A DNA stretch of 50,335 bases. Origin: a virus. Both the position numbers and the translations under genes were made by a program. Shown here piece by piece: positions 3,001 through 41,908 of the stretch. Every line of letters starts with the position of its first letter. Position 1 is the stretch's first letter. The DNA is taken from UHGV virus genome UHGV-1998140, one strand, 5' to 3'. Under the pieces are notes generated by a model. That model did not search any database and was not told the DNA's origin. It worked only from the letters and a program-made list of their open reading frames with translations.

Positions 3001-6000
3001 TGATACGACGTCATACCCCATGCGGTCGTAAGAAGGATCAAATGCCGGGTTAGGTATATAGTCATCCCCGGCTGCTTTTGCGGCGCTAATTGAGCTGTTG
3101 AGGGAAGTGATATTACTGTTCGCTGCAGTCAGGCCACTTTCCGTCTTCTCCACTCGCCCGGTCAGTGACGTCAGCGCGCTCTGATCCGCCTTTTTACTCA
3201 CATTCGAGTTCGTCGTGGTCAGGTCATTCTGCAGCTTTGTGATTGCCTGGCTGTGGCTGGCCAGTTTCCCTTCCGCTGAGTCAACGCGACTGGTCAGGTC
3301 AGTCACGGCAGAGGCATTTGCCTTCTTCGACACCCCGGTCGACGAAAAAACGTCGACTTTACGGATATACAGACGCGCACTGTTTGACGGTACCCAGCCC
3401 CCGGCGGCAAACCGCAGATAGACATAATTCCCGGTAAAGTTTTCCGGAATGGTCAGCTCCACGGTTTTCGTCTGCCAGCTGGTCGTCACGCCACTCAGCC
3501 ACGGGGATTCTGAGGATAGCCAGGCGACAGGATTGCCCAAATCAGTTATCACACCAACGGTATCAGACGATACGCTGTTCATCGTTTCCGATGTTTTGTA
3601 CTCAAATGAGACGGTAAGCGTCAGCCCGGCCTCAGCAGGGATACGCGTGACGTTGGCAACCCGAACAGAGCCGGTTGTCGTTCTCAGCGCTTTTTCACCT
3701 GCATCATACGTGAATGCCGAGCCGGTACCGGAGTTCTCCCAGAACGACAGATCCACATCCATGCCGCCGTTACTAATCAGGCTCCCTTCAGCCAGGGTGT
3801 TTTTCAGCATCGTCAGCTGGCCAGACTGTGTGGTCAGGTTGCCTTCCGTCGCGGATACCCGGTTGGTTAACGCCGTGACCGCGCTCGCATCGGCCTTTTT
3901 ACTGACGTTTGAATTGGTTGTCGTCAGGTCGTTCTGCAGTTTAGCGATCGCGCTGCCCTGGCTGGTCAGCGTTTTATCCTGCTGGCTGACGCTGGACTGC
4001 AGGCCCGTGATGGCGTTGCTGTTTGCGGCCACGCCCGACTCTGCTTTACCGACGCGGTTAGACAGCGAGGTCAGCGAATTCCCCTGGCTGGTTAACGTAG
4101 TGCCCTGCTGTTCAACCTTTTGCGTGAGGGACTGCAGCGCGGTTGCATCGGCTTTTTTACCCAGACTGGTTTCCAGCCCGCTGATTTTGCTGGCCTGTGC
4201 GCTTTGTGCGGTCGACAGGGAACTCAGCTCCTCCGCCACCGAGGATTTATTCTCGTTGAACTGCGTCTGCAGCGATTCCCGGGCTGTCACCTCTGCTTTA
4301 TCAGCAGTGATACGGGCATTCATCTCCTGAAACAACAGGCCAGAGCGCAGGTCTGCCAGATTATTGCTTTCACTCGTCCCCCGCATCTGCGTGGCCAGCG
4401 TGGCTCGCTTATTCGCTTCTGCCGTATCGGCATTCGCACGGGCTGTCGATTCTTCGCGCAATGCTGCAGTGCTGGCTCCCGGCGTCGGTCGACCCACGGC
4501 AATCCAGTCAATGATGATGAAATTATCATCAGACTGATCCACCGTTAAATCGAGGCGAAACTGGACAACCGGCTTGCTGTCATCGCTTCCCCAGGGAATG
4601 TCCTGAATACTGAGAACAGCCCTGCCACTGCTGTCATAATCCGGCTCTGCGACGGTCAGCATGCGACTGTCGTTGAACGACTGACCTTCATAGCGCCAGC
4701 GGATTTGACCACTCCACGCGGGCGTCCCCGTTTTCTTAAGACGCAGTTTCAGAAAGCGGTACGCTGAGCCACTGATACTGATTCCAGGAGATGTAATGTA
4801 AGCATCTGTCGCATGGTTTGCCGGTCTCAGCCAGCCGTTTTCAACAACCGAAGGCGTGCCGCCGTTAGATGTCCAGCCTTCCCGGTCGTTATCAAAGTAC
4901 CAGATAGCCTGGCTGTCAAACTGCTCCCCGGTTCCCGCCGAAATCTGAGCCATCTGTGTGGCCAGAGAATCATTCACATTCTGGATGATTTGCTGTGTCG
5001 ACTCGATAGCTGCAACACGCTCGTTTTTTTCATTCAGCAGCTGGTCTGCCGCCTGCGCCGCTTTCGCGTTGACGTCCGCAATGCGGTCGGCAGTCTCCTG
5101 TTTTACCGCTTTGTCCCAGCCTGTATTCGCCTGGGCGATGGACTGTTTCAGACTGTTTTCAACCGTCTGCAGCTGGGATTTTAACGCAGCATCCCCTTCG
5201 GCCAGGGTTTTGTTAACGTCAGCGATCTGCTGGTCAACGGAGGCATTAATATCGCTCACGGCATCGGTGATGCTCTTGTTGACTGCCGTGATATTGTCAC
5301 TGAGCGTCTGATTTACGCTGTTGATATTCTCCGTTATCGACTTGTTGACCGCCTCTATCTGCCCGTCAACCTGCTGGCGGATCTCAGACGCGGAATCATC
5401 AATACTCTGGTTAATATCGGTGACCTGCTGCGCGACTTCTTCACGAATAGCATCGGCGGTTTTTGTCAGCTCCTTGTGGGTCTCCTCAATATCCCGCTGG
5501 GCTTCCTGCCAGGCTTCCGTATCCTTAATCGCATCGGTCAGCTTGTCGTAATACTCACCGATATCGTCGCTGGCCATCCCCTGCACCCAGGCGGTCCACG
5601 GGCTTTCATTGCCGATACGATCAACGATCCGCGCGCGGTACCAGAATATCGCCGCAATCTGCAGGCCCATCTGCTGATACGTTTTACCCGGATACGCCAC
5701 ATCAGACAGCGCCATCGCCCCGTTGCCGTTGGGATTAGGACTGTACTGCAGCTCGGTTTTCTGCGTATCGCCGCTCCCCTCCGGGAACTCCCAGTTCAGC
5801 TGCACGCCATGCAGCAGGGAAGTGGTGGTCAGCGCCAGCGGTGCCGACGGCAAACCGATTTTTCCGGTCAGCGTTTTCTCTTCTGAGTATGCCCAGCCGC
5901 TGGAGACCTCTGCAGCGTTGATCGCCCGGACACGGGCCAGATAACGACCGGCGTAAATGCCGCTGACCTCGAACGAGGTGGTCGAGCTGCGCGGCACGTT

Positions 6001-38622: not shown

Positions 38623-39176
38623 GCGGATTTCTCCATACACATTGATTTATTCGCCACGACGCCCGGAGCTGCACACTCGCGGGCGTCACTCTTTTCTGCC
38701 ACACAAAACACCCGGTAAAGAAGCGTGATGTGTTCCTGAAATTTGGCGATTACCTGATAACTGTTTTCCTCAATCTGAGCACGCTCGGCATCATCAATAA
38801 CGCCGTCAGCTGTCGCTTTGCGTACAAAATTAGAATGCTTGCCGATCCACTCGATCGACTCCATTAAGCGCTGGTTAATATCGCCGTTATCGACATCTTC
38901 AATATCCGCCAACGGAACGAATACCCCACCTGATTGGCGCGCGATAGCGTCTGCGATATGATTTGCGCCACCAGCACGCTGGAGCACCATCACCCATCCA
39001 AGCGGGAAAATTTGATCGCCATCAACACGCAGGCGGTTAAACAAAGCATTTTCGGTTACACCGAGCCATTCAGCGGCTTCGCCATAACCCCCAGGCAATT
39101 CAGTGATCGTTTTCTTGATCGCGGCCACCAGCCAAGCAGGCTGACGCTCTACTTTCCAGATTGGCTCATTACCCAC
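38619..39176 (-). CDS. CII-like / early regulatory protein (uncertain)
   Basis: 185 aa immediately downstream of cro; HTH-like segment [18 protein letters not shown]. Confidence 0.4.
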
Positions 39177-39432
39177 GGTGACCTCTCTTTTTCTGTGGTG
39201 TAACTTCTTGTTTACTTTCCGTATGCTTCAAATACCGATGCGGATATAAAATCTGGAGTTCATCTATCTGGCCTGAAAAAAAATTGACCAGTTTCTCCGC
39301 AATGTCAGTTGACGCAACCTGTTGCCCTCGCTCGATTCGGCTCAAGTTTCCAGGATCAATATCTACTGCTGCAGCAACATGGGACAAAGTCATACCTTGC
39401 GACTTACGCAAGTATCTTAACGGTGATTGCAT
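39169..39432 (-). CDS. cro: Cro-like HTH repressor
   Basis: Start at ATG 39432 with AGGAGG 5 nt upstream; HTH LSHVAAAVDIDPGNLSRIERGQ; divergent from cI. Confidence 0.7.
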   Translation of the reverse strand: MQSPLRYLRKSQGMTLSHVAAAVDIDPGNLSRIERGQQVASTDIAEKLVNFFSGQIDELQILYPHRYLKHTESKQEVTPQKKRGHRG

Positions 39433-39447
39433 AAAACCTCCTTTAAA

Positions 39448-39510
39448 TTGCGCATTACGCATATTAAAGGGTACTTACGCCTTGCGCAAGTTGCTTTGCA
39501 TATAACGCAA
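39448..39510. promoter_or_regulatory. OR-like operator region with divergent PR / PRM promoters
   Basis: Three ~15-17 bp sites with TTGCG...CGCAA half-sites; PR -35 TTGCGC/-10 TAATAT (minus); PRM -35 TTGCAT/-10 TGTAAT ending 7 nt before cI ATG. Confidence 0.5.
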
Positions 39511-39530
39511 AAATGACTTGTAATTAACTT

Positions 39531-40226
39531 ATGAACATCGGAAAGCGAATCAGAGAACTACGCCTTGCAAAGGGCTTAAAAATAAACGACCTGGCTGATG
39601 CTTTGGGCATTGATGGCGCCAATATTTCTCGCATGGAAACAGGTAAACAGAAATCATTTACCGAACAATCCCTTAATCTTTATGCAAAGGCATTAGGCGT
39701 AGAAGTTGCTGAGCTCTTTACACCTCCCCAAAATGAAATTACTGTATATAATAACAGTATAAAACATCCAGTTCATGGAGAGGGTAGCTCGGTGTTTAGA
39801 GTGGAAATGCTTGATGTCAGTGCGAGCGCTGGTGGTGGATTTATTCAGGGCAGTGATGTTATTGATGTCATAAGGTCTATTGAATACAACAACGACCAAG
39901 CCATGACTTTATTCGGTGGCAGAACACCAGACTCAGTGAAGGTCATTAACGTTCGGGGCGACAGCATGGCTGACACTATTCAGCCTGGAGATTTGATTTT
40001 CGTCGATGTTTCAGTCAATAGCTTTGATGGCGATGGCATCTACGTCTTTGGTTTCGATGGCAAAATATATGTTAAGCGCCTGCAAATGATACCAGATAAA
40101 ATGCTCGTGATTTCTGATAATCCAAAATACAGAGAATGGGAAATCGATCGGGCTAATGAATACCGCTTTTGCGTTTATGGCAAAGTAATGATCAGCCAGT
40201 CACAAGCCTTCAAGCGCCACGGCTAA
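39531..40226 (+). CDS. cI: CI-type repressor (HTH plus S24 LexA-like peptidase domain)
   Basis: 231 aa; N-terminal HTH LKINDLADALGIDGANISRMETGK; C-terminal S24-like domain (RGDSMADTIQPGDLIFVD ... KIYVKRL). Confidence 0.9.
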   Translation: MNIGKRIRELRLAKGLKINDLADALGIDGANISRMETGKQKSFTEQSLNLYAKALGVEVAELFTPPQNEITVYNNSIKHPVHGEGSSVFRVEMLDVSASAGGGFIQGSDVIDVIRSIEYNNDQAMTLFGGRTPDSVKVINVRGDSMADTIQPGDLIFVDVSVNSFDGDGIYVFGFDGKIYVKRLQMIPDKMLVISDNPKYREWEIDRANEYRFCVYGKVMISQSQAFKRHG

Positions 40227-40244
40227 CCAGTTCCATTCATTTTT

Positions 40245-40267
40245 GCCGCCTTTATGGCGGCTTTTTT
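40245..40267 (+). terminator. Rho-independent terminator downstream of cI
   Basis: GCCGCC-tttat-GGCGGC stem followed by TTTTTT. Confidence 0.6.
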
Positions 40268-40280
40268 ACGCCCTCAAAAC

Positions 40281-40315
40281 TGCGAATTACGCAATTTTTA
40301 GTTGCGTAATTCGCA
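40281..40315. promoter_or_regulatory. OL-like operator palindrome
   Basis: Perfect 14-bp inverted repeat TGCGAATTACGCAA / TTGCGTAATTCGCA separated by 7 nt; same half-site family as the OR sites; TATTAT hexamer 7 nt downstream. Confidence 0.4.
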
Positions 40316-40434
40316 ACTTCATATTATCGTTGGTTGCATCGATAGCGAACAGGCAGGACGCCCACGAAGTAGCCGCCCGGGGCATATGAAGGCCGGGATG
40401 ATTCGCTAAGCAACCAGACAGCAGAGGCTTCAGG

Positions 40435-40647
40435 ATGAATTCAGCACAACGCCGTAAGGCATACCGCAAGCTACCAAAAGCTGGAGGAATTGTAGTTCTA
40501 CACGGTGTCCCTCGTTTAGTCCTAGGGTTATGCACATTTAACAGCTTTACGGGCGAAGAACGTAGCAAACCATCAGTAAACCGTATCAGAGTACAAATGT
40601 CAGGCGGCTCAACTGCGGCCCCCCTGGTGCGTAATTTGAAGTTTTGA
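40435..40647 (+). CDS. Candidate N-like antiterminator (very uncertain)
   Basis: 70-aa ORF with arginine-rich N-terminus MNSAQRRKAYRK in the position where lambda carries N; no RBS. Confidence 0.2.
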   Translation: MNSAQRRKAYRKLPKAGGIVVLHGVPRLVLGLCTFNSFTGEERSKPSVNRIRVQMSGGSTAAPLVRNLKF

Positions 40648-41378
40648 TTAAAAACAGGTGTCTTCGGGAGGGGTTGCGGAGCTGGATTGACCACCAGCAA
40701 CAGAAACTCACCCGACATACAGCAGCCGTTTAACCCACGGCGTCGGGGGTCCAGTAAACCTGGATTAATACTGTAGGGGTTGTGCCGGTTGGTCGCCGGC
40801 GCCCCGCCCGAAGACACCTGAGTTAACACAACATGAAAGCGCATTCCATCTTCATCCGTCGTGGGGACTGGTTTGTAACTGAAGGAGTGCGCTTCCAGTT
40901 GTGAACGGCAACATTCACACCGTTGTATGGCACATGCAACGTCAGCGGCCTGAGAGTTCCCTTTATCCATCAACTCTCAGAACACCGGAATGTGCAAGCC
41001 AGGTGTTTCAGGCACGACGTGCGCCCCACCAGCGCGGCGAAAAGGTGTGACGCCCGGGAAGAGTCCGGGACACAACAGGTAAGAGCATTCCCGCCACACG
41101 AGGCTGAAACCCAAGCGCCATGTGGATGCGCCGAAAAGCTACGACGGGGCGTTGGTAGAAGATCGGAGTGCTCTTTCCGTTGTGGTAATTGCGGCTATGC
41201 GCACGTGACGAGCCAAACCCGTTCAATGAATGCGTTTCCGGGAAGTGTACGTCGCCGGTTACTGGCTAAACCCGGCAGGTGGAGGCACCACCGCCACAAC
41301 CTAGTTAACTGTGCTGTGTGTGGTCTTGGCGGTTATCCAGTTTTCCACTATCCAAAGGAGGAAGAGGATAACGTTGTG

Positions 41379-41540
41379 ATGGATAACCGCCCTTTTTACA
41401 CAATACAAAAGAGCATCACCGGGCGACGGGCTCATTACCCAATCCACCCGGGCGGCATCCAAACCGCAGGTACTCTTCTGTGTTGTGTACGGAGAAATTC
41501 CCGGCGGTGGCAGCCGCCTTTCGAGAGGGTAAAACCATGA
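41379..41540 (+). CDS. Small basic ORF coupled to downstream gene (uncertain)
   Basis: AGGAGG/GAGG upstream of in-frame GTG 41376 and ATG 41379; TGA overlaps next ATG (ATGA); Arg-rich, may be non-coding. Confidence 0.25.
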   Translation: MDNRPFYTIQKSITGRRAHYPIHPGGIQTAGTLLCCVRRNSRRWQPPFERVKP

Positions 41541-41908
41541 GTAATGATCGCATGACAGTAGTGCCCGATTTCCTGGGTGAACTGGACGCCGGCGTGTTCA
41601 TGAACAAGATTGCGGCGGCTCTTAATACCACCGCGCTCGGCGTTCTGAACAACGGCAACAAAGGCAAGGTTGTCCTCACCTTTGATTTTGAGCGTATGGG
41701 CAACTCTGTTGAAGAGAAGCGCGTCAAGATTAAGCACAAGCTGAACTACAGCACCCCAACTCCCCGCGGCAAAGCGTCGGAAGAGGACACCACCGAAACA
41801 CCAATGTGGGTTAACAAAGGCGGCAAGCTCACTATCCTGCAGGAGGATCAGGGGCAACTCTTCGGTATCACCGGCACGGTGGACGGAAAGCTTAAAGCGG
41901 CTCAGTGA
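41537..41908 (+). CDS. Hypothetical early-left operon protein (YfdP-like position)
   Basis: Start at ATG 41537 (MSNDRMTVVPDF) inside the 142-aa track ORF; first clear gene after the non-coding region. Confidence 0.5.
   Translation: MSNDRMTVVPDFLGELDAGVFMNKIAAALNTTALGVLNNGNKGKVVLTFDFERMGNSVEEKRVKIKHKLNYSTPTPRGKASEEDTTETPMWVNKGGKLTILQEDQGQLFGITGTVDGKLKAAQ

What the first reader, a model, noticed from the sequence alone, without database searches (positions are those of the whole stretch)
39433..40327. Immunity region: OR-like operator triad, near-leaderless cI, OL-like palindrome
Three sites with TTGCG...CGCAA half-sites overlap divergent promoters. The inferred PRM -10 (TGTAAT) ends 7 nt before the cI ATG, implying a near-leaderless cI mRNA as in lambda. 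A perfect 14-bp palindrome of the same family lies just beyond the cI terminator.
Basis: partly seen in the sequence, partly recalled or inferred. Interest (0 to 1): 0.4.

Follow-up and report, generated by a model that had tools for sequence, protein, structure and literature searches.

The report
Lambda-type prophage immunity switch region
This is an ordinary lambda-style lysis/lysogeny switch of an ST64B/phiNP-like enterobacterial prophage, whose repressor mRNA starts at its own ATG, as already mapped experimentally in the Salmonella relative ST64B.

Summary
TTGCG-N5-CGCAA sites cluster around a divergent cro/cI pair: three lie in the 98-bp intergenic region, each with one mismatch. The "14-bp palindrome" after the cI terminator is two operator sites, 22 bp apart, that are exact reverse complements. 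A fourth, perfect site inside cro codons 8-12 was missed; codon usage in 51 relatives shows selection on the DNA itself. The layout holds in about 57 non-redundant relatives, including phiNP and ST64B. They keep TGTAAT (TTAAAT in one clade) 6-7 nt before the cI ATG and no Shine-Dalgarno sequence. Published dRNA-seq of the ST64B lysogen SL1344 puts the cI start exactly on the A of the ATG. It also puts the PR start where the conserved TTGCGC-17-TAAYAT promoter predicts. It is a new member of a known kind and of low interest. In passing: the predicted PL transcript begins with a 65-70-nt structured RNA element with strong covariation and no Rfam match. The element follows early-left promoters of many heteroimmune prophages, including E. 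coli K-12 e14. A second structured domain of about 165 nt lies downstream. These deserve separate study.

The parts
39169..39432 (-). cro-like gene (87 aa, HTH_3), first gene of the rightward-equivalent (PR) operon. SD AGGAGG at 39442->39437. Overlaps the CII-like gene (38619-39176) by 8 nt.
   Evidence: Pfam HTH_3 E 6e-10. Recognition helix GNLSRIERG resembles that of CI. SD verified.
39397..39411 (.). Fourth operator ('site A'), a perfect TTGCG-N5-CGCAA inside cro codons 8-12 (L-R-K-S-Q). Its centre is 51 bp (about 4.9 helical turns) from site 1 and about +51 relative to the PR start.
   Evidence: Perfect in 39 of 57 relatives and 1 mismatch in 15. Codon test on 51 unique sequences: L8 TTG 49/49, R9 CGN 51/51, S11 TCG 48/48, Q12 CAA 37/37. 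Control codons L5, L16, R6, S17 and Q24 vary freely.
39448..39462 (.). Operator site 1 (OR1-like), TTGCGCATTACGCAT. Covers the PR start (about 39455) and overlaps the PR -10 by two bases.
   Evidence: always CGCAT, because the AT is part of the PR -10. PR TSS position inferred from ST64B dRNA-seq.
39461..39489 (-). PR promoter for cro: -35 TTGCGC (39489->39484), 17-nt spacer, -10 TAATAT (39466->39461), start about 39455.
   Evidence: Conserved as TTGCGC-17-TAAYAT in relatives. ST64B TSS P1159 lies 6 nt after TAACAT. Coordinates verified.
39475..39489 (.). Operator site 2 (OR2-like), TTACGCCTTGCGCAA. Its right half sits in the invariant palindrome CTTGCGCAAG (39481-39490), which also holds the PR -35. 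Its left half is poorly conserved.
   Evidence: mismatch distribution 1:28, 2:13, 3 or more:16 of 57.
39496..39510 (.). Operator site 3 (OR3-like), TTGCATATAACGCAA. Overlaps the PRM -35 and has one mismatch in 56 of 57 relatives (two in the other).
   Evidence: The distant clade has TTGCG-N5-TGCAA instead, i.e. the mismatch moves to the other half.
39496..39531 (+). PRM promoter for cI: -35 TTGCAT (39496-39501), 17-nt spacer, -10 TGTAAT (39519-39524), start = A of the ATG at 39531 (leaderless mRNA).
   Evidence: Hexamer and spacing conserved (TGTAAT 38, plus 2 shifted by 1 nt; TTAAAT 17 of 57). SD-like 4-mer upstream of cI in only 5/57, versus 47/57 for cro. ST64B TSS P1160 has 5'UTR 0.
39531..40226 (+). 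cI repressor gene (231 aa): N-terminal HTH (helix 3 about residues 28-36, ANISRMET), putative Ala100-Gly101 cleavage site, Ser145 (GDSM) and Lys182 (VKRL) of the S24 autopeptidase.
   Evidence: Pfam Peptidase_S24 E 1e-20, HTH_3 E 3.5e-10. PHROG 4 'transcriptional repressor' E 7e-55. UmuD alignment over GDSM...VKKL. The ATG is the first start codon in the ORF.
40245..40268 (+). Intrinsic terminator of the cI transcript (GCCGCC-TTTAT-GGCGGC followed by TTTTTT).
   Evidence: A hairpin plus T-run at the same place in all relatives, with different stem sequences.
40280..40294 (.). OL-a operator, CTGCGAATTACGCAA, upstream of the PL -35.
   Evidence: a site pair 22-24 bp apart in 64 of 66 unique downstream regions.
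40302..40316 (.). OL-b operator, a perfect TTGCGTAATTCGCAA. Covers the PL -35 and spacer.
   Evidence: perfect in 44 of 64.
40302..40337 (+). Candidate PL promoter: -35 TTGCGT (40302-40307), 17-nt spacer, -10 TATCGT (40325-40330), start about 40337.
   Evidence: TTGCG(T/C)-17-TAT(C/T)(T/G)T conserved across relatives. No TSS data; a TSS would not be expected in a lysogen.
40340..40413 (+). Structured leader RNA element at the 5' end of the predicted PL transcript.
   Evidence: Covariation model hit 94.6 bits, E 1e-30, the only copy in the window. 9 of 15 pairs show compensatory changes. 97.6% of cells are paired, versus 20-41% when partners are slid. No Rfam match.

Best explanation
The region is the immunity (lysis/lysogeny) switch of an ST64B/phiNP-like temperate phage and works like lambda's.

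CI is an HTH protein with a LexA/UmuD-type S24 self-cleaving domain. It is inferred to bind as a dimer to 15-bp operators of consensus TTGCG-N5-CGCAA.

In OR:
- Site 1 sits on the PR start and -10.
- Site 2 sits on the PR -35. Occupancy of sites 1 and 2 shuts off cro and the early-right operon.
- Site 3 has one mismatch in 56 of 57 relatives and overlaps the -35 of the weak cI promoter PRM. It should give negative autoregulation at high CI.

PRM (TTGCAT-17-TGTAAT) starts transcription on the A of the cI ATG. The maintenance mRNA is therefore leaderless and has no Shine-Dalgarno sequence, which keeps repressor levels low.

The cI transcript ends at an intrinsic terminator. Just beyond it, two more operators 22 bp apart cover the early-left promoter PL (TTGCGT-17-TATCGT).

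A fourth operator inside cro lies 51 bp (about 5 helical turns) from site 1. It probably gives CI, or Cro, a second in-phase contact for a short loop or a roadblock at about +51.

Cro has a near-identical recognition helix and most likely uses the same sites. RecA-stimulated cleavage at Ala100-Gly101 would induce the prophage.

Shown: the sequence features, their conservation, the domain content, and the TSS positions in the homologue ST64B. Inferred: protein binding, affinity order, cooperativity or looping, autoregulation and SOS induction.
For: - Site clustering: 6 sites in about 0.9 kb, against 0.07 per kb expected.
- Domains: CI has S24 plus HTH, Cro has HTH, and a CII-like gene follows cro.
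- The same six-site layout occurs in phiNP (77% DNA identity) and ST64B (70%). It also occurs in 80 IMG/VR loci with CI 67-100% identical.
- The cro-cI intergenic length is fixed at 98-99 nt.
- Promoter hexamers are conserved in position while flanks vary.
- SD-like 4-mer upstream of cI in 5/57 unique sequences, versus 47/57 for cro.
- dRNA-seq of the ST64B lysogen: cI TSS at the ORF's first base (5'UTR 0); PR TSS 6 nt after TAACAT (PMC3293720 Table S1 rows P1160 and P1159).
- Codon-level selection on the intragenic site.
- CI and Cro HTH regions are 38% identical, with helices ANISRMETG and GNLSRIERG. Both helices are conserved across the family.
- Terminator.
Against: - No binding data exist for any member of this family. 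No paper on these operators was found.
- The generic promoter scan found no sigma-70 site in 39000-40700 at its thresholds. All three -35 hexamers match only TTG, and TGTAAT lacks the usual A at position 2.
- Site 2 has a poorly conserved left half. Its centre is 27 bp (2.6 turns) from site 1 and about -49 from the PRM start. Lambda-style OR1-OR2 cooperativity and OR2-mediated activation of PRM therefore cannot be assumed.
- The 6 nt before the window's ATG (TAACTT) differ from the (G/A)NCGC/GGCAC of most relatives. The exact start in this phage is inferred, not measured.
- ST64B also has a weak upstream TSS 292 nt before cI (row P1161), so leadered cI transcripts exist too.
Confidence: 0.85

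Rival explanations
1. cI in this phage is not translated from a leaderless mRNA. It is made mainly from a longer transcript started upstream (a PRE-like promoter within or beyond cro), and the SD-less ATG is initiated through the A/U-rich upstream region (S1-dependent).
For: ST64B has a second plus-strand TSS 292 nt upstream of cI with sigma-70 -10 and -35 motifs (row P1161). The 25 nt before the window's ATG are A/T-rich. TGTAAT lacks the consensus A at position 2, and its -35 matches 3 of 6.
Against: In the lysogen the upstream TSS has 8/4 reads, against 59/218 for the TSS at the ATG. TGTAAT/TTAAAT is conserved exactly 6-7 nt before the ATG across 57 sequences. A CII-dependent promoter would be expected to act in establishment, not maintenance (established lambda biology; inference here).
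Confidence: 0.08
2. The TTGCG-N5-CGCAA sites are bound by Cro or another regulator rather than CI, or CI and Cro use different site sets. For example, the invariant palindrome TTGCGCAA could be a dedicated Cro site, as with the single Cro operator of telomere phages.
For: The most invariant block in OR is the 10-12-bp palindrome, not a 15-mer. The left half of site 2 is degenerate. PY54 Cro binds a single operator (PMC4488713, abstract listed).
Against: The recognition helices of CI and Cro are nearly the same (N-x-S-R-x-E-x-G) and conserved across the family, which predicts shared half-site specificity. OL sites next to cI and over PL make sense only as targets of the lysogenic repressor. The palindrome also contains the PR -35, which explains part of its invariance.
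Confidence: 0.07
3. The inverted repeat after cI (40281-40315) acts as an RNA hairpin or terminator, or as a recombination site, rather than as a pair of operators.
For: The terminator scan lists it as a 16-pair stem with a 3-nt loop. The arms are exact reverse complements.
Against: No T-run follows it (ACTTCATATT). A canonical terminator already lies 20 nt upstream. In relatives the two sites keep the half-sites and the 22-24 bp spacing, but their central 5 bp are not complementary to each other, so the long hairpin is not conserved.
Confidence: 0.03

Closest known systems
Bacteriophage lambda immunity region (OR1-3/PR/PRM, cI, OL1-3/PL)
   Same: - Divergent cI and cro with operators over both promoters.
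- The weakest site lies over PRM.
- cI mRNA starts at its AUG (lambda: Walz et al. 1976, as cited in PMC3293720).
- cI and PL are on the same strand, with OL beyond cI.
- CI is an HTH plus S24 self-cleaving protein.
- A CII-like gene lies after cro.
   Different: - Unrelated operator sequence: a 15-bp TTGCG-N5-CGCAA site versus lambda's 17-bp site.
- Two OL sites, not three.
- An extra operator inside cro.
- OR spacing of 27 and 21 bp, rather than 24 and 23 bp (lambda values from memory).
- cI is followed directly by a terminator, with no rexAB.
- OL-OR distance is about 0.8 kb, versus about 2.4 kb (from memory).
- No N or nut was found; PL is followed by a structured RNA leader.
- The CII is of the CP76 family.
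Salmonella phage ST64B (sb38/sb39) and Citrobacter phage phiNP immunity modules
   Same: - 70-77% DNA identity over the module.
- Identical site layout and promoter hexamers.
- ST64B TSSs mapped by dRNA-seq match the predicted PRM and PR.
- The same leader RNA element follows PL.
   Different: - Different genes after cro in ST64B: sb40/sb41 instead of CP76 CII plus Rha.
- ST64B's middle OR site lacks the left half-site entirely.
- Neither record annotates operators.
- phiNP's deposited cI start is 45 nt too far downstream.
Phage 933W switch
   Same: A lambdoid switch with three OR sites but no OL3 (PMC3317979).
   Different: Different repressor and operator sequences. 933W repressor is reported not to bind cooperatively; nothing is known here.
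Switches with an extra operator inside the first lytic gene (e.g. lactococcal phage TP901-1 OD; from memory, not checked here)
   Same: A repressor site downstream of the lytic promoter, inside or near the first lytic gene, thought to support repressor multimer looping.
   Different: Unrelated proteins. TP901-1 CI is not an S24 protein. The resemblance is recalled, not tested.
HK022 put RNA (for the PL leader element only)
   Same: About 70 nt and structured. It lies immediately downstream of PL, in a phage without a recognisable N (PMC9378689).
   Different: No sequence similarity to HK022 putL. The covariation model does not hit the HK022 locus. Different topology: a closing helix enclosing two hairpins, versus two side-by-side stem-loops. 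There is no second copy downstream of PR.

Membership tests
Lambda-type CI/Cro immunity switch | Divergently transcribed repressor and cro genes separated by a short regulatory region | tested here: met
   cro is at 39169-39432 (minus strand) and cI at 39531-40226 (plus strand), 98 bp apart. The distance is fixed at 98-99 bp in relatives.
Lambda-type CI/Cro immunity switch | Repressor has an N-terminal HTH plus a C-terminal S24 (LexA/UmuD-like) autopeptidase with Ala-Gly, Ser and Lys | tested here: met
   Pfam Peptidase_S24 E 1e-20 and HTH_3 E 3.5e-10. GDSM and VKRL align to UmuD. A100-G101 was read from the sequence. Cleavage itself was not tested.
Lambda-type CI/Cro immunity switch | Several related, partly symmetric operators overlapping PR and PRM | tested here: met
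   Three sites plus one intragenic site. Overlap with promoters whose starts are mapped in ST64B. Protein binding is not testable with these tools.
Lambda-type CI/Cro immunity switch | Second operator cluster (OL) over an early-left promoter beyond cI | tested here: met
   Two sites 22 bp apart over a conserved TTGCGT-17-TATCGT. There is no TSS evidence for PL.
Lambda-type CI/Cro immunity switch | Maintenance cI mRNA starts at the AUG (leaderless) | tested here: met
   Met for the homologue ST64B by published dRNA-seq (5'UTR 0). For this window it is inferred from the conserved -10 at 6 nt and the absence of an SD; it has not been measured.
Lambda-type CI/Cro immunity switch | Cooperative CI binding, OL-OR looping, positive and negative autoregulation of PRM | not testable with these tools
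   Only spacings are available: 51, 27, 21 and 22 bp. The 27-bp spacing and the -49 position of site 2 argue against simply copying the lambda scheme.
Lambda-type CI/Cro immunity switch | N protein and nut sites for antitermination of early operons | tested here: not met
   No N-like family was found for ORFs downstream of PL. No boxA/boxB was seen. Instead there is a structured RNA leader. This feature defines lambda proper, not all lambdoid switches.
HK022 put antiterminator RNA (for the leader element 40340-40413) | Sequence or structure homology to putL/putR | tested here: not met
   No BLAST similarity. Model R1 finds nothing in the HK022 immunity locus.
HK022 put antiterminator RNA (for the leader element 40340-40413) | About 70-nt structured RNA immediately downstream of the early promoter | tested here: met
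   The element starts about 3-8 nt after the predicted PL start. In 90 non-redundant contexts a sigma-70-like promoter directly precedes it.
HK022 put antiterminator RNA (for the leader element 40340-40413) | Protein-independent suppression of pausing and termination by binding RNA polymerase | not testable with these tools
   Needs in vitro transcription.

The most novel reading that the evidence does not exclude
Two readings are not excluded.

(a) The switch is not a simple lambda copy. A selected intragenic operator in cro pairs in phase with site 1, sites 2 and 3 pair at 21 bp, and the OL sites pair at 22 bp. CI would then act through three in-phase pairs and an 0.8-kb OL-OR loop.

(b) More interesting: the PL transcript begins with an undescribed family of structured leader RNAs. 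These are a 65-70-nt three-helix element and a roughly 165-nt multi-helix domain. The element is shared by many heteroimmune enterobacterial prophages, including E. coli K-12 e14, and occurs in 1381 of 5426 complete E. coli genomes. It could act as a protein-independent (put-like) antitermination or anti-Rho device that lets RNA polymerase cross a roughly 1.1-kb stretch with at most one short ORF.
Probability: 0.3. Interest if true: 0.65.

Novelty: new member of a known kind. Interest (0 to 1): 0.3.

Why it matters
The finding itself mainly allows correct annotation of a widespread prophage immunity module. About 10% of complete E. coli genomes carry a module of this family at about 68% identity. 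The annotation gains are:
- the operator consensus;
- the PR, PRM and PL positions;
- the true cI start, which is mis-called in the phiNP record because there is no SD.

It adds one more example to the rule that temperate-phage repressors are often translated from leaderless mRNAs. The intragenic operator is a clean example of a DNA-binding site constraining synonymous codons.

The larger potential value lies next door. A conserved, covarying and unannotated RNA sits at the 5' end of early-left transcripts of many prophages, including one in E. coli K-12. There it could be tested directly.

Tried and rejected
- The generic sigma-70 scan of 39000-40700 found nothing at its thresholds. Promoters were instead defined by conservation and by the ST64B TSS data.
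- Rfam found no family, either at gathering thresholds over the whole window or at E<=1 over 40200-41600. ARAGORN found no tRNA or tmRNA.
- PDB sequence search gave only UmuD and generic HTH proteins such as C.AhdI and a 434-derived domain. There is no close solved repressor-operator complex.
- E. coli e14 YmfK was considered as a relative. Only the S24 domain aligns (36% over 66 aa), and its operators are different.
- HK022 putL was compared with the leader element and shows no similarity.
- Literature searches found nothing on this module beyond the dRNA-seq table. They covered ST64B operators and immunity, 'leaderless ST64B', and the element's sequence strings.
- The hit at 40169 inside cI was rejected as chance: it occurs in 1 of 63 relatives. 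The hit at 32578 has a GC-rich spacer, lies inside an ORF far from any promoter, and was not pursued.
- No plausible promoter was found by eye around site A on either strand, so it was not read as a promoter element.
- A PRE-like promoter in the window could not be identified with confidence.
Full report
**What is in the sequence**

Between 39169 and 40330 the window carries a divergent gene pair.
- On the minus strand is an 87-aa HTH protein at 39169-39432. Its start is ATG at 39432, preceded by AGGAGG.
- On the plus strand is a 231-aa protein at 39531-40226.

Pfam calls the 231-aa protein HTH_3 (E 3.5e-10) plus Peptidase_S24 (E 1.1e-20), and the 87-aa protein HTH_3 (E 6e-10). The next minus-strand gene (38619-39176) is a 'Phage regulatory protein CII (CP76)'. 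PHROGs agrees: 'transcriptional repressor' at 7e-55 and 'CII-like transcriptional activator' at 2e-60. Further along the minus strand are a Rha/antirepressor-type gene and a replication-initiator-like gene. This is the gene order of a lambdoid immunity and early region.

The S24 domain aligns to UmuD across GDSM and VKRL. By inspection the cleavage site would be Ala100-Gly101, the nucleophile Ser145 and the base Lys182.

**Checking the observation**

The pattern TTGCGNNNNNCGCAA with at most one mismatch occurs 8 times in the 50-kb window. Dinucleotide-preserving shuffles give 3.7 +/- 2.0, and 1 of 100 shuffles reaches 8. Six hits lie between 39397 and 40316, where about 0.07 per kb are expected; the Poisson P is about 2e-10.

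Each has one mismatch.

The 'perfect 14-bp palindrome' is not a palindrome. It is two sites, 40280-40294 and 40302-40316. Their 14-bp cores are exact reverse complements, separated by 7 nt.

A seventh hit inside cI (40169) is absent from 62 of 63 related cI genes and is chance.

TGTAAT lies at 39519-39524, 6 nt before the ATG. A clean intrinsic terminator (GCCGCC-TTTAT-GGCGGC followed by T6) lies at 40245-40268.

**Relatives**

The closest deposited phages are Citrobacter phage phiNP (77% DNA identity over the whole module) and Salmonella phage ST64B (70%). Both have the same gene order around the module and the same six sites.

A scan of IMG/VR with the CI protein returned 80 loci with CI 67-100% identical. 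These give 57 non-redundant upstream regions and about 65 non-redundant downstream regions.

A 'distant' BLAST finds modules of this family in many complete E. coli genomes. At least 80% of the module is covered, at about 68% identity, in 546 of 5426 genomes. The module is therefore common, not exotic.

**Conservation of the control region**

The cro ATG to cI ATG distance is 98-99 nt in essentially all relatives, so the regions align without gaps. The information profile and per-site counts show the following.
- **Site 1** is always TTGCG-N5-CGCAT. The final AT belongs to the minus-strand hexamer TAATAT/TAACAT.
- **The middle of OR** holds the most invariant block, TTGCGCAAGT. It contains the right half of site 2 and, on the minus strand, TTGCGC. 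The left half of site 2 is poorly conserved: 1 mismatch in 28 sequences, 2 in 13, and 3 or more in 16 of 57.
- **Site 3** has one mismatch in 56 of 57. In the closer relatives it is TTGCA-N5-CGCAA. In a distant clade it is TTGCG-N5-TGCAA, so a deliberately imperfect site is maintained.
- **The cI promoter hexamer.** TGTAAT (38 sequences, plus 2 shifted by one base) or TTAAAT (17) sits 6-7 nt before the cI ATG. TTGCAT, TTGCGT or TTGCAC lies 17 nt upstream of it.
- **Shine-Dalgarno.** Only 5 of 57 sequences have any SD-like 4-mer in the 15 nt before the cI ATG, against 47 of 57 for cro.

Downstream of cI every relative has a hairpin plus T-run with different stem sequences. Two sites then follow, 22-24 bp apart, in 64 of 66 regions. 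The distal one is perfect in 44 of those 64. It is followed at a 17-nt spacing by TATCTT, TATTGT or TATCGT. I read this as PL: -35 TTGCGT at 40302-40307 and -10 TATCGT at 40325-40330. The long hairpin potential of the two OL sites in the window is not conserved in relatives.

**Experimental anchor**

S. Typhimurium SL1344 is an ST64B lysogen. Ramachandran et al. 2012 (PMC3293720) mapped its primary transcriptome. Their Additional file 2, Table S1 lists three relevant rows.
- **Row P1160.** TSS 2072244 (+) is the first base of SL1344_1967 (2072244-2072939, 'Transcriptional regulator, Phage encoded'), with 5'UTR length 0. The upstream 51-mer is CTTGCGCAAGTTGATTTGCACAATGCGCAAAAAATTAATGTAATGAACGCA. 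This is exactly the ST64B OR/PRM sequence I extracted and ends on the A of the ATG.
- **Row P1159.** TSS 2072168 (-) has the upstream sequence ...CAACTTGCGCAAGTTTGCTGTATGAAATAACATGCGATA. This is TTGCGC-17-TAACAT with the start 6 nt after the hexamer.
- **Row P1161.** A weak plus-strand TSS lies 292 nt upstream of cI (8/4 reads, against 59/218 for P1160). It is a plausible PRE-type promoter.

The text of the paper states that 16 mRNAs start precisely at the A of the AUG, and cites lambda cI as the classical case.

By homology the window's PRM start is 39531 and its PR start is about 39455, in the centre of site 1. No PL start appears in that table, as expected for a repressed promoter.

**The fourth operator**

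Site A lies in cro codons 8-12 (Leu-Arg-Lys-Ser-Gln). The codon counts in 51 non-redundant cro 5' ends are:

| Position | Codon use | Control codon in the same gene |
|---|---|---|
| Leu8 | TTG in 49/49 | Leu5 and Leu16 each use six codons |
| Arg9 | CGN in 51/51 | Arg6 uses AGA, CGA, AGG |
| Ser11 | TCG in 48/48 | Ser17 uses six codons |
| Gln12 | CAA in 37/37 | Gln24 is CAG 12 to 1 |

The positions that fall in the N5 spacer (third base of Arg9, all of codon 10) vary freely. This shows selection on the DNA (or RNA) sequence TTGCG-N5-CGCA, not only on the protein.

The centre of site A is 51 bp (4.9 turns) from site 1. From memory, lambda repressor binds cooperatively to operators placed 5 or 6 turns apart. 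A short CI (or Cro) loop, or a roadblock at about +51, is therefore the likeliest role. This is inference.

**Who binds**

The HTH regions of CI and Cro are 38% identical. Their recognition helices are ANISRMETG and GNLSRIERG. Across the family both keep the pattern N/T-[IL]-S-R-x-E-x-G. Shared half-site specificity, as in lambda, 434 and P22, is the simplest reading.

No binding experiment exists for any member as far as I could find.

**Where the lambda analogy should not be pushed**

- Centre-to-centre spacings are 27 bp (sites 1-2, out of phase), 21 bp (2-3), 22 bp (OL-a to OL-b) and 51 bp (A-1).
- Site 2 is centred about 49 bp upstream of the PRM start. Lambda's OR2 is at about -42 (from memory). 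OR1-OR2 cooperativity and OR2-dependent activation are therefore open questions.
- OL has two sites, as in 933W, which lacks OL3 (PMC3317979).
- All three -35 hexamers match only TTG, and the generic promoter scan reports nothing.

The predicted PL transcript (start about 40337) begins with a block that megablast finds, unannotated, in many phages: ST64B, phiNP, SfV, SfII, SfIV, mEp237, mEp460, SPN3UB, ZF40 and Yersinia YeP1-3. It also occurs in 1381 of 5426 complete E. coli genomes.

In E. coli K-12 the block sits right after the PL-like promoter of the e14 prophage, between ymfK and ymfJ. The e14 repressor and operators are unrelated to those here.

A pattern scan of IMG/VR gave more than 100 distinct copies. 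An alignment of 31 diverse copies folds into a closing helix that encloses a 3-bp hairpin and a 5-bp hairpin.
- 9 of 15 pairs show compensatory changes.
- 97.6% of cells are paired, against 20-41% when partners are slid.
- 68 cells have double changes, against 17.8 +/- 3 in shuffles (0 of 500 shuffles reach the observed value).
- The unpaired stretches CAGGCAGGANGCCCACGNAGUAGC and GAUGA are almost invariant.

A covariation model finds one copy in the window (40340-40413, 94.6 bits). It finds none in the HK022 immunity locus.

In 90 non-redundant contexts the element is directly preceded by a sigma-70-like promoter carrying many different operator types. In 53 of the 90 a same-strand S24 repressor ORF ends within 260 nt upstream. 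The element is therefore a portable 5' leader of early-left operons of heteroimmune prophages. It occupies the place of nutL in lambda and putL in HK022 (PMC9378689). It has no sequence similarity to putL.

Rfam has no matching family. Literature string searches found nothing.

Further downstream, 40655-40822 forms a second domain closed by GGUGUCUUCGGGAGGGG...CCCCGCCCGAAGACACC. Of 37 predicted pairs, 10 show compensatory changes in 14 relatives. The stretch 40414 to about 41536 is a mosaic of non-coding modules, each shared with different phages. It also holds one 70-aa ORF of uncertain status.

A put-like or anti-Rho role for the leader is a hypothesis only.

**Verdict**

The finding is a correctly recognised lambda-type immunity region of an ST64B/phiNP-like prophage. 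The operator family, promoters and terminator are real and conserved. The leaderless cI start is experimentally established in a close structural homologue.

It is a new member of a known kind, and specialists would not be surprised by it. The refinements are:
- two OL sites, not a palindrome;
- a selected operator inside cro;
- an atypical middle OR site.

The neighbouring structured leader RNAs are the only part with real novelty potential, and they lie outside the finding as given.

Noticed in passing
window 40340-40413 (+); also L083 (E. coli K-12 e14) 3107-3181 (-), L001 4242-4315, L002 3946-4019: A 65-70-nt structured RNA element at the 5' end of the predicted PL transcript. It has strong covariation: 9 of 15 pairs are compensatory, and 97.6% of cells are paired versus 20-41% in slid controls. 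It has no Rfam family. It occurs in many heteroimmune prophages and in 1381 of 5426 complete E. coli genomes, always just downstream of an early-left promoter. Its function is unknown; a put-like or anti-Rho leader is my hypothesis.
   Followed up: yes
window 40655-40822 (+): A second structured domain of about 165 nt, closed by GGUGUCUUCGGGAGGGG...CCCCGCCCGAAGACACC. It comes in at least two interior variants in relatives. In many relatives it follows the first element directly. 10 of 37 predicted pairs show compensatory changes in 14 sequences. No Rfam match.
   Followed up: partly
window 40414-41536: About 1.1 kb between PL and the first conserved ORF (sb37 homologue, PHROG 204) holds at most one short ORF of uncertain status. 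It is a mosaic of modules, each 70-260 nt and 80-94% identical to unannotated stretches of different phages: Klebsiella prophages, phage D6, LASTA/SJM3, SopranoGao.
   Followed up: partly
window 40435-40647 (+): A 70-aa ORF right after the leader element with an arginine-rich N-terminus (MNSAQRRKAYRK...). It has no Pfam or PHROG hit. There are weak tblastn matches (37-42% identity) to hypothetical proteins of two Pseudomonas phages. Whether it is a real early gene, or N-like, is open.
   Followed up: partly
L001 (phiNP, OR565852.1) 3432 vs 3477: The deposited phiNP cI CDS starts 45 nt downstream of the family-conserved ATG, probably because the true start lacks an SD. The leaderless start at locus position 3432 restores the full HTH.
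   Followed up: yes
ST64B in S. Typhimurium SL1344, chromosome position 2071952 (+); equivalent would be near window 39240: Published dRNA-seq lists a weak plus-strand TSS 292 nt upstream of the ST64B cI, antisense to cro. It looks like a PRE-type establishment promoter. I could not identify a convincing counterpart in the window, whose post-cro genes differ from ST64B.
   Followed up: no
window 37725-38519 (-): A gene combining Rha (Phage_pRha) and KilAC/ANT antirepressor domains sits in the PR operon two genes after cro. Its relation to CI, for example as an alternative induction route, was not examined.
   Followed up: no
window 39169-39176: The cro stop and the GTG start listed for the CII-like ORF overlap by 8 nt, suggesting translational coupling. 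The CII start codon was not verified.
   Followed up: no
window 40169-40183 and 32578-32592: Two further one-mismatch matches to the operator pattern. The one in cI is absent from 62 of 63 related cI genes and is chance. The one at 32578 has a GC-rich spacer inside an ORF and was not examined further.
   Followed up: partly
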